NCBI RefSeq assembly: GCF_963676685.1
Contig: NC_092346.1
Span: forward strand, 98,580,001-98,644,000
From: Mytilus edulis
Taxonomy: Eukaryota
Length of the DNA stretch: 64,000 nucleotides
Reading direction: 5' to 3'
Position numbers: made by a program. Position 1 is the stretch's first letter. Every line of letters begins with the position of its first letter. Shown here one piece after another: positions 60,001 through 63,000 of the stretch.

Positions 60001-63000
60001 CATAGTAACTGTTTTCTTTGCATGATCTTGACTAAAATCTTCATACATTTGTTCTACTGTTAATGGTTTTCTATTCTGAAATTAATTAAATAATATTATT
60101 AATAATGAAATTCTTTATTTAAAAAAGGTAACTCATTTAACAATAACATAAACTATTAATACAAATAGAATGGAAAAAGATGTACACAAAAAAATTACAT
60201 AATACAGTTATATAAAGCAGCTTAAATATTGAATAAGCACATTGGCATTCAATAGAAGAAGAAAAAATATGTAAGAGTCAGGTATCTCAATTCTGTACTG
60301 TTGAAAAAATAATTTGAACATTTGATCTTAAAGTTGTCAAAATTATTTATTTCTTTAATATTATTTGTCAAATTAGTTCATGTATTTAGACCAGCATAAT
60401 TAAATGTTCTTTTAAAAATTTAATTTGATGTAAACTAAAAAGAAACTTATGAAACTATTCTTGCAGCAGGCTTTTGGAGCTTATGTATCCTTTCAAGAAG
60501 ACAGTTTGTGGTAATATCCCATACTGTACAAATGCTGTACAACACTAAGTTACATAATGTGCTATTGACATAATACAATATATATATGAGGTCAGCATAT
60601 TTCATATGGGACTAGAGCGAAGCTCAAATAACAATATCATATATTAAATATGAAATATGAAATACAAATTTGTCATATGTTATATTGAGGACTTACTTCA
60701 TCATAACCATATAGCCATAACCTAGGGGTTTGGTAATACTTGTCATATGTTATATTGAGGTCATAGGTTCTGGTCTGTAATATACCACTCTCTCCCCCAG
60801 GTTCTGAGTCTTGTCTGGAACACTTTTCAGGTTGTAATGTGGCCTGAAAGAAGTAAACATTATAAATAAAAAAATCTTCTATCTTAAACATCAAATGCCA
60901 TGGACTATTTTCTTGATCAAATCAACATGGCAACATAACTGAAAGCATAACTTAAAACTAAGTAACAATTCAACTAATAATGTGCTGCTATATGTGTTAC
61001 TGCATATATACTATTTTCATATTTCATTTATGAAACAAACTGTCTTTTTACTCCACCTCTTATTCATATAAATAAAATCATCTTCCTCCTTTTACACGAC
61101 ATTGTTTGACTGAAATCACACTCCTTCCCATTATAAGGTACAAATTTGCTCAATTTCTCTAGATCTTTAATCTGATAACTACATGGGACATCACCTTCCT
61201 TCTCTTGCCGCTTTGTTTAACTCCTCCCATTAATCAGATACTTACATTATCTTCCTCCTCTAAGATGCCACTTTGTTTAAATCCTCCCATTAATCAGATA
61301 CTTACATTATATTCCTCCTCTAAGATGCCGCTTTGTTTAACTCCTCCCATTAATAAGATACTTACATTATCTTCCTCCTCTAACATGACACTTTGTTTAA
61401 CTCCTCCCATTTATAAGCTACTAACATTATCTTCCTCCTCTAACATGCCACATTGTTTAACTATTCCCATTAATCAGATACTTACATTATCTTCCTCCTC
61501 TAACATTCCACTTTGTTTAACTCCTCCCATTAATCAGATACTTACATTATCTTCCTCCTCTAACATGCCACTTTGTTTAACTCATCCCATTCATCAGATA
61601 CTTACATTATCTTCCTCTTCTAACATGCCACTTTGTTTAACTCCTCCCATTAATCAGATACTTACATTATCTTCCTCCTCTAACATGCCACTTTGTTTAA
61701 CTCCTCCCATTAATAAGATACTTACATTATCTTCCTCCTCTAACATGCCACATTGTTTAACTCCTCCCATTAATGAGATACTTACATTATCTTCCTCCTC
61801 TAACATGCCACTTTGTTTAACTCCTCCCATTAATCAGATAATTACATTATCTTCCTCCTCTAAGATGCCGTTTTGTTTAACTCCTTCCATTAATCAGATA
61901 CTTACATTATCTTCCTCCTCTAACATGCCACTTTGTTTAACACCTCCCATTCATCAGATACTTACATTATATTTCTCCTCTAATATGCCACTTTGTTTAA
62001 CTCCTCCCATTAATCAGATAATTACATTATCTTCCTCCTCTAAGATGCCGCTTTGTTTAACTCCTCCCATTAATGAGATACTTACATTATCTTCCTCCTC
62101 TAACATGCCACTTTGTTTAACTCCTCCCATTCATCAGATACTTACATTATATTTCTCCTCTAATATGCCACTTTGTTTAACTCCTCCCATTAATCAGATA
62201 CTTACATTATCTTCCTCCTCTAACATGCCACTTTGTTTAACTCTCCCATTCATCAGATATTTACATTATATTTCTCCTCTAACATGCCACTTTGTTTAAT
62301 TCTTCCCATTCATCAGATACTTACATTATCTTCCTCCTCTAAGATGCCACTTTGTTTAACTCCTCCCATTAATCAGATACCTACATTATCTTCCTCCTCT
62401 AACATGCCACTTTGTTTAACTCCTCCCATTAATCAGATACCTACATTATCTTCCTCCTCTAACATGTCACTTTGTTTAACTCCTCCCATTAATCAGATAC
62501 TTACATTATCTTCCTCCTCTAACATGTCACTTTGTTTAACTCCTCCCATTAATCAGATACTTACATTATCTTCCTCCTCTAACATGCCACTTTGTTTAAC
62601 TCCTACCATTCATCAGATACTTACATTATCCTCCTCCTCTAACATGCCACTTTGTTCAAAATCTTCCATGTCCATAACATCTCCGTCGTCGTCATCATCG
62701 TCTCCATCATCATCATCATTGTCCTGATTACTGACCTTTTTACTGTCCTTTAAATAATCAAATTATAATGCTTAATTCCTATGACTGAAAACCTGACTTA
62801 GTTAATTGTATCCTATGATGTTAAAAAAAAATCAGAATTTTTTAAGCAACAACTACATGATACGATTGATTGGATTATGTAATGCATCAGTTAGTCACAA
62901 GTTAGTTGAAGTGCCAACTCATTGACAAGGAGGTTTAATCAATTCAATTTCAATTCTTTATTACTTTAAGCACATTATGCTTATCAGTGCAATAAATACA

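What the first reader, a model, noticed from the sequence alone, without database searches (positions are those of the whole stretch)
61205..62656. ATG3 intron begins with 23 extra copies of its own 5' splice site
Seen: each 60-bp unit holds about 32 nt of exon (encoding QSGMLEEEDN) plus the donor. All 24 copies keep AAT|GT and most keep GTAAGT. The first intronic codons read GTA AGT ATC TGA, so using any distal donor adds a premature stop. Inference: the array is a U1-binding decoy field that could route ATG3 mRNA to nonsense-mediated decay, making copy number a possible tuner of autophagy gene dosage.
Basis: partly seen in the sequence, partly recalled or inferred. Interest (0 to 1): 0.75.

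Follow-up and report, generated by a model that had tools for sequence, protein, structure and literature searches.

The report
Repeated splice donor in mollusc ATG3
An intron of a bivalve autophagy gene (ATG3) starts with 24 tandem copies of its own exon end and splice donor, a repeat type already known from several human genes where the extra donors mostly stay silent.

Summary
On the minus strand, a 60-bp unit (32 nt of exon end plus 28 nt of intron) is repeated 24.2 times at 61206..62656. All 24 copies keep AAT|GT and 18 keep GTAAGT. The gene is ATG3 of a bivalve mollusc, not human. Joining the first donor (62625|62624) to acceptor 60843 is colinear with bivalve ATG3 proteins. Any distal donor would bring in a TGA after three codons.

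The functional reading (U1 decoy field, NMD, dosage tuner) has no support here. GT and the donor positions vary as much as the rest of the unit. Decayed tail copies have lost the donor. The array shows block duplications typical of minisatellite turnover. Three further arrays in this window repeat an exon end plus donor: one more in ATG3 and two in an unrelated chitin-binding gene.

The architecture is known from human F7, IFI6, CBS, LMNB2 and PDGFA, where only the first donor, or the first few, are used. The array is most likely a near-neutral boundary minisatellite tolerated because the first donor is chosen. No RNA data could be consulted. Whether such arrays are enriched at donors in this genome is suggestive under one null and not significant under another.

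The parts
62625..62747 (-). ATG3 exon A (acidic flexible-region exon, ends ...SGMLEEEDN)
   Evidence: ORF and splice sites. Its last residue aligns to residue 172 of Pinctada ATG3.
61206..62656 (-). 60-bp minisatellite, 24.2 copies. The first unit spans the exon A/intron boundary. The G of each donor lies at 62624, 62564 ... 61245.
62613..62615 (-). In-frame TGA, the fourth codon after the exon end. It becomes a premature stop if any distal donor is used.
61050..61217 (-). Decayed tail of about two to three old unit copies, with donors degraded (GTCCCA in one, no GT in another)
   Evidence: Local alignment to tandem units scores 41, against a maximum of 29 in 300 mononucleotide shuffles. The lower limit is approximate.
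60844..62624 (-). Intron A-B, 1781 nt. 1419 nt of it (80%) belongs to the array.
60697..60843 (-). ATG3 exon B (ATLQPEK...LWLYGYDE), with a strong pyrimidine-rich acceptor
59948..60075 (-). ATG3 exon C, carrying the HPC motif (which I recall as the catalytic site)
   Evidence: Pfam PF03987, E = 1.5e-13; sequence
59221..59289 (-). ATG3 exon D
59040..59229 (-). Second boundary minisatellite in the same gene: 58 bp x 3.2, with the exon D donor context ACATGT|GTAT present four times
57655..57733 (-). ATG3 last coding exon (…[25 protein letters not shown]), stop at 57652..57654

Best explanation
This is an exon-intron boundary minisatellite. A 60-bp segment straddling the 3' end of an ATG3 exon and its donor was tandemly duplicated. 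It was then amplified by slippage or unequal exchange to 24 copies, and now makes up 80% of the intron. The spliceosome most likely uses the first, authentic donor. The 23 downstream copies would then be competent but normally silent pseudo-sites that leave with the intron. At most there would be a small leak from the nearest copies, giving transcripts with a premature stop. On this reading the array is a near-neutral by-product of a minisatellite-rich genome and not a device built for ATG3. Shown: the anatomy, the colinearity of the first-donor junction, the stop, the lack of constraint on donors, the block duplications, the decayed tail and the sister arrays. Inferred: which donor is used, neutrality, and the mode of expansion.
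For: The first donor joined to 60843 is colinear with Pinctada ATG3 (residue 172 then 173). Named bivalve ATG3 proteins read ...SGMLEEEDN/ATL... without a gap. 39 of 60 unit columns are invariant, so an invariant GT is expected by chance (P = 0.42). Positions +1..+6 carry 6 non-consensus cells against 5.5 expected. Units 9-11 and 12-14 form a 180-bp block duplication, and 4 of 24 units equal the consensus, which indicates recent turnover. Decayed tail copies have lost the donor. The unit is found only here. Three other arrays in the window repeat an exon end plus donor: 59040..59229 in ATG3, and 13464..13717 and 18898..19096 in a CBM_14 gene. Their periods of 58, 76 and 92 nt would shift the frame if a later donor were used, so this organism evidently tolerates such arrays. 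Precedent from PMC1557585 (abstract, Introduction and Discussion read): F7, LMNB2 and PDGFA use only the first donor, while IFI6 and CBS also use the two nearest copies.
Against: No transcript data for this species could be consulted, so donor choice is inferred from mammalian precedents. The F7 paper itself notes contradictory results from earlier duplicated-donor experiments. Without the array the intron would be only about 360 nt, and the last donor lies about 400 nt from the acceptor. If splice sites are paired across the intron, distal donors could compete. Each copy carries its own purine-rich exon-derived segment and a strong donor. The first donor differs from the consensus copy at only three positions outside -6..+13, so sequence alone does not mark it as preferred. 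Under a founder-unit null, donor-spanning arrays are about ten times more frequent than expected, which pure neutrality does not predict.
Confidence: 0.62

Rival explanations
1. The reiterated donors compete with the authentic donor. Transcripts spliced from a distal donor carry a TGA and are degraded by NMD. Copy number therefore tunes ATG3 output.
For: Any distal donor includes the TGA at 62613..62615, upstream of four more exon junctions. 18 of 24 donors are GTAAGT. No structure masks them: fold z = -0.87. IFI6 and CBS do use their two nearest pseudo-sites (PMC1557585 Introduction). The title of Lievers 2001 links the CBS boundary VNTR to reduced enzyme activity. I saw that title only in the reference list of PMC2630376 and did not read the paper.
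Against: Donor positions show no excess conservation. The decayed tail copies lost their donors. The same architecture occurs in an unrelated gene in this window. In the precedents, usage is confined to the nearest copies, so the leak should not scale with 23 copies versus fewer. F7 pseudo-sites do not compete at all (PMC1557585 abstract).
Confidence: 0.12
2. The extra donors act positively. U1 snRNP bound just downstream of the authentic donor strengthens definition of the short acidic exon or protects the nascent transcript. Donor-spanning duplications would then be retained by selection.
For: U1 binding downstream of a natural 5' splice site enhances exon definition in PAH exon 11 (PMC5933811, abstract read). 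Under a founder-unit null, donor-spanning arrays number 4 against 0.42 expected (P = 6e-4). Without the index array, P = 0.007.
Against: The coverage null is not significant (P = 0.07 and 0.19; 0.25 and 0.20). Donor positions show no constraint. The intron has no AATAAA in gene sense and only two ATTAAA, so there is little to protect against. One or two extra sites would be enough, and 23 are not explained.
Confidence: 0.1
3. The array length is an assembly artefact, or an allele-specific expansion that disables this ATG3 copy.
For: Long near-identical tandem arrays are hard to assemble. No reads could be inspected.
Against: The units carry distinct, ordered variants and a block duplication rather than uniform copies. 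All five ATG3 exons in the window are intact and conserved.
Confidence: 0.06

Closest known systems
Human CBS exon 13/intron 13 31-bp VNTR, written c.1444_1467+7(16_21)
   Same: The unit is exon end plus donor plus intron start (24 + 7 nt), repeated 16-21 times, so the donor is reiterated many times (PMC2630376 passages; PMC1557585 Introduction).
   Different: The unit here is 60 bp (32 + 28 nt) with 24 copies, in a mollusc and in a different gene. In CBS two pseudo-sites are reported as used, whereas usage here is unknown.
Human F7 intron 7 37-bp minisatellite
   Same: The first monomer spans the exon-intron boundary. The pseudo-sites are identical to the authentic donor, functional but silent, and the most upstream site is selected (PMC1557585).
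   Different: F7 has 5-9 copies, only 4 nt of exon per unit, and a weak donor (UGG/gugggu). Here there are 24 copies, 32 nt of exon per unit and a strong GTAAGT donor. Polymorphism is not known here.
Human IFI6 (6-16) intron 2 minisatellite
   Same: The authentic donor is followed by about 25 reiterated pseudo-sites, a similar number (PMC1557585 Introduction).
   Different: As I recall, not from a call, the IFI6 unit is 12 nt and in frame, so use of the next sites adds residues. Here any distal donor brings a stop.
Human LMNB2 (100 bp x 10-15) and PDGFA (81 bp x 16-18) boundary repeats
   Same: A long unit reiterates the exon/intron junction and covers most of the intron, and only the authentic donor is used (PMC1557585 Introduction and reference titles).
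   Different: Different genes and taxa. Those papers were not read.
Regulated unproductive splicing (alternative donor coupled to NMD)
   Same: An alternative donor would create a premature stop.
   Different: There is no evidence of use, conservation or regulation. The alternative sites here are duplicates made by repeat expansion.

Membership tests
Exon-intron boundary minisatellite with reiterated 5' splice sites (F7/CBS/IFI6/LMNB2/PDGFA type) | Head-to-tail array of a 10-100 bp unit | tested here: met
   Period 60, 24.2 copies, 93% matches
Exon-intron boundary minisatellite with reiterated 5' splice sites (F7/CBS/IFI6/LMNB2/PDGFA type) | The first monomer spans an authentic exon-intron boundary | tested here: met
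   Unit 1 is the last 32 nt of exon A plus 28 nt of intron. The junction is colinear with bivalve ATG3.
Exon-intron boundary minisatellite with reiterated 5' splice sites (F7/CBS/IFI6/LMNB2/PDGFA type) | Downstream copies carry the same donor sequence | tested here: met
   24 of 24 keep AAT|GT and 18 of 24 keep GTAAGT
Exon-intron boundary minisatellite with reiterated 5' splice sites (F7/CBS/IFI6/LMNB2/PDGFA type) | Only the most upstream donor or donors are used in vivo | not testable with these tools
   No transcript data for this organism were on hand.
Exon-intron boundary minisatellite with reiterated 5' splice sites (F7/CBS/IFI6/LMNB2/PDGFA type) | Copy number varies among individuals (VNTR) | not testable with these tools
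   There is a single sequence only. The block duplication suggests turnover.
Selected poison-donor / AS-NMD switch | The alternative site yields a premature stop | tested here: met
   TGA at 62613..62615
Selected poison-donor / AS-NMD switch | The alternative sites are under constraint | tested here: not met
   GT invariance P = 0.42; positions -3..+6 carry 6 non-consensus cells against 8.25 expected, P = 0.39. The tail copies lost their donors. Power is low, with 55 variant cells in all.
Selected poison-donor / AS-NMD switch | The alternative sites are used and the products are NMD-sensitive | not testable with these tools
   No RNA data
Decoy exon causing intron retention | A paired acceptor and donor define a non-productive exon | tested here: not met
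   No AG in the array has more than 7 of 13 pyrimidines before it, against 11 of 12 at the true acceptor. The unit is 70% purine.
ATG3 (E2-like autophagy enzyme) | Autophagy_act_C domain with the HPC motif, and colinearity with ATG3 orthologues | tested here: met
   PF03987 on exons B and C above the cut-off and on exon E just below it (22.5 against 24.4 bits). Exon B found 720 relatives, the best named ones bivalve ATG3 at 75-82%. The N-terminal half lies outside the window.

The most novel reading that the evidence does not exclude
In this bivalve genome, tandem duplications are born or retained preferentially at exon 3' ends. On this reading, multiplied donors are a recurrent feature of gene structure (4 of 23 placed donors in 64 kb, in two unrelated genes), and the ATG3 array is the extreme case. 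That would point either to a junction-targeted duplication process or to selection for extra U1 binding next to donors.
Probability: 0.15. Interest if true: 0.6.

Novelty: new member of a known kind. Interest (0 to 1): 0.35.

Why it matters
The array offers a natural test of how a spliceosome outside the vertebrates chooses among 24 near-identical strong donors, in an essential autophagy gene where a wrong choice truncates the enzyme before its catalytic exon. Four such arrays sit in one 64-kb window, so this genome may be a good place to ask whether first-donor choice is general. It could also show whether boundary minisatellites arise or persist more often than chance allows. As a single locus it is an ordinary example of a known repeat type.

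Tried and rejected
Structural masking of distal donors. The first 300 nt of the array fold no better than shuffles (z = -0.87; 38 of 200 shuffles fold at least as well).

Dispersed repeat or transposon origin. The unit has 24 matches of at least 39/60, all between 61000 and 62700.

Coding use of the array. The gene-sense frame has a stop in 19 of 24 units at +10..+12. The 378-aa antisense ORF (61163..62299, plus strand) is a by-product of periodicity, with only a sub-threshold Extensin_1 match of 21 bits against a cut-off of 105.

Protection from premature polyadenylation. The intron has no AATAAA in gene sense.

RNA genes. Rfam and ARAGORN found nothing in the window.

Closest unnamed protein hits. 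P0001, P0003 and P0013 are read-through ORFs of genomic contigs that cover exon B only, so they say nothing about splicing.

Literature. One search for ATG3 + tandem repeat + intron + bivalve (10 of 215 papers listed) showed no report of this locus. Three searches for enrichment of tandem arrays at splice junctions showed no such report among the papers listed. These searches were narrow.

Not checked. Orthologous introns in other molluscs, reads and transcripts.

Full report
**What is there.** Tandem Repeats Finder reports a single array at 61206..62656 with period 60, 24.2 copies, 93% matches and no indels. Read on the minus strand, every unit consists of 32 nt identical or nearly identical to the end of an exon (encoding QSGMLEEEDN), followed by a donor and 28 nt of intron start. 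24 of 24 units keep AAT|GT and 18 of 24 keep GTAAGT. The rest are GTAGGT x2, GTAATT x2, GTAAAT and GTTAGT. The spacing is 60 nt except for one 59-nt unit. The exon frame continues GTA AGT ATC TGA, so the stop lies at 62613..62615.

**The gene.** Exon-sized ORFs were searched one at a time. Three of the five ATG3 exon ORFs match Pfam Autophagy_act_C: exons B and C above the cut-off, the last exon just below it (22.5 against 24.4 bits). One of them carries the HPC motif. Exon B alone finds 720 relatives. The best named ones are bivalve ATG3 proteins: Pecten maximus 82%, Crassostrea virginica 78% and Pinctada 75%. No hit was identical. The window is therefore molluscan, most likely from a bivalve whose species I did not determine, and it is not human. 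Its G+C content is 32% and it has no N.

The model within the window is:
- exon A, 62747..62625
- exon B, 60843..60697
- exon C, 60075..59948
- exon D, 59289..59221
- last exon, 57733..57655

The N-terminal half of the gene lies beyond the window end. The last residue of exon A aligns to residue 172 of Pinctada ATG3 and the first residue of exon B to residue 173. Named bivalve proteins read straight across this point. The first donor is therefore the productive one. Any later donor would add VSI and a stop, ahead of the exon with the HPC motif, which I recall as the catalytic cysteine.

**Is the donor under constraint?** I aligned the 24 units. 55 of 1440 cells differ from the consensus and 39 of 60 columns never vary, so an invariant GT is what chance gives (P = 0.42). 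Positions +1..+6 carry 6 variant cells against 5.5 expected, and -3..+6 carry 6 against 8.25 (P = 0.39). Power is low, but nothing suggests that donors are protected. Beyond the array, towards the acceptor, two or three decayed copies can still be aligned (score 41, against a maximum of 29 in 300 mononucleotide shuffles). One has GTCCCA at the donor position and another has no GT.

**How the array grew.** Units 9-11 and 12-14 differ by 1, 2 and 1 positions, which marks a 180-bp block duplication. Units 10 and 15 are identical, and 4 of 24 units equal the consensus. This is the usual signature of minisatellite turnover. The true first unit has three differences from the consensus, two of them private and none within -6..+13 of the donor, so position and not sequence distinguishes it.

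**Other readings tested.**
- The unit occurs nowhere else in the window, so it is not a dispersed element.
- The array RNA folds no better than shuffles (z = -0.87).
- The unit is 70% purine. No AG in the array is preceded by more than 7 of 13 pyrimidines, against 11 of 12 at the real acceptor, so internal acceptors or decoy exons are unlikely.
- The intron has no AATAAA in gene sense.
- The long antisense ORF is a periodicity artefact.
- Rfam and tRNA scans found nothing.

**The surroundings change the picture.** The window has 26 TRF rows, which I merged into 22 arrays. The intron after ATG3 exon D also begins with a repeat whose first unit spans the donor: 58 bp x 3.2, with ACATGT|GTAT present four times. 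The window also holds a long minus-strand gene built of chitin-binding CBM_14 exons. 15 of 69 ORFs of at least 80 aa hit that family at E up to 0.001, and five more hit below the cut-off. Two of its exons end in arrays of the same kind: 76 bp x 3.3 at 13464..13717 (donors GTAAGT, GTAAAT, GTAAGT) and 92 bp x 2.2 at 18898..19096 (GTAAGT twice). The exon behind the 92-bp array has only a weak Pfam match (E = 0.032). In all, 4 of the 23 donors I could place are reiterated, in two unrelated genes. A device specific to autophagy dosage is therefore unlikely. This organism evidently copes with reiterated donors, since later donors in the 58-, 76- and 92-nt arrays would shift the frame.

**Is that an excess?** The answer depends on the null.
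- Founder-unit null. If each array's founding unit is placed at random within its gene, 0.42 donor-spanning arrays are expected and 4 are seen (P = 6e-4). Leaving out the index array gives P = 0.007. If there are twice as many donors as I detected, P = 0.04.
- Coverage null. If one simply asks whether donors lie in repeated sequence more often than random bases, the answer is no. 6.9% of random positions also recur downstream, giving P = 0.07, or 0.19 without the index case. Arrays cover 11% of the two genes, giving P = 0.25 and 0.20.

The tests were made after seeing the cases. I regard the excess as a lead only.

[quoted passage not shown] It gives these examples:
- F7 intron 7: 37 bp x 5-9.
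- IFI6: 25 pseudo-sites.
- CBS intron 13: 15-20 repeats.
- LMNB2: 100 bp x 10-15.
- PDGFA: 81 bp x 16-18.

In F7, LMNB2 and PDGFA only the authentic donor is used. In IFI6 and CBS the two nearest copies are also used. The F7 pseudo-sites are functional when the first is mutated but do not compete with it. The paper also notes that older duplicated-donor experiments disagreed. The CBS repeat is written c.1444_1467+7(16_21), that is 24 nt of exon plus 7 nt of intron (PMC2630376, passages). A paper whose title links it to reduced CBS activity appears in that reference list, but I did not read it. PMC5933811 (abstract) shows that U1 bound downstream of a donor can strengthen exon definition. PMC6627357 (passages) restates the F7 model.

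**Verdict.** The thing is a boundary minisatellite, a known kind, newly seen in a bivalve ATG3. Most likely the first donor is used and the rest are silent, and the array is close to neutral (confidence about 0.6). What stays open for lack of data is donor usage, length polymorphism, the state of the orthologous intron in other molluscs, and whether the local excess at donors holds genome-wide.

Noticed in passing
window 59040..59229 (minus strand): A second boundary minisatellite in the same ATG3 gene. It is 58 bp x 3.2, and its first unit spans the exon D donor, so ACATGT|GTAT occurs four times (G at 59220, 59162, 59104, 59044).
   Followed up: yes
window 13464..13717 and 18898..19096 (minus strand): Two arrays (76 bp x 3.3 and 92 bp x 2.2) in the CBM_14 gene each start inside an exon 3' end and reiterate its GTAAGT donor. 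The unit lengths are not multiples of three.
   Followed up: yes
window 8220..34582 (minus strand): A long multi-exon gene with roughly one chitin-binding peritrophin-A (CBM_14) domain per exon. About 20 such exons were found, many ending ...CAT|GTAAGT about 29 nt after the domain.
   Followed up: partly
window 63219..63999 (runs off the window end): A 57-bp array of at least 13.7 copies lies in the intron upstream of exon A, with a visible two-unit (114-bp) alternation. Whether it reaches the upstream exon's donor cannot be seen.
   Followed up: partly
window 26760..26883 (minus strand): A 60-bp x 2.1 array whose units each contain ACA|GTAAGTGA in gene sense, about 30 nt upstream of the region where I place the next exon's acceptor. 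I found no evidence of an exon ending there.
   Followed up: partly
window 34149..34243 (minus strand): A 28-bp x 3.4 array that is purely intronic and starts 23 nt downstream of a CBM_14 exon donor (G at 34266).
   Followed up: partly
window 43508..44011 (plus strand): Two adjacent ORFs in different frames match reverse transcriptase (RVT_1). This is most likely a frameshifted remnant of a retroelement.
   Followed up: no
window 61163..62299 (plus strand): A 378-aa stop-free antisense frame runs through the array (repeating PLCLTPPINQILTLSSSSNM). It has only a sub-threshold Pfam match, so I take it for an artefact of the repeat.
   Followed up: partly
window 61365..62085 (minus strand): 5 of 24 units have lost the in-frame TGA at +10..+12 (TCA x2, TTA x3), giving short open frames across neighbouring units. 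The first intronic TGA at 62613..62615 is intact.
   Followed up: partly
window 59401..59471: A perfect 23-bp x 3.1 repeat (100% matches) lies in the ATG3 intron between exons C and D.
   Followed up: no
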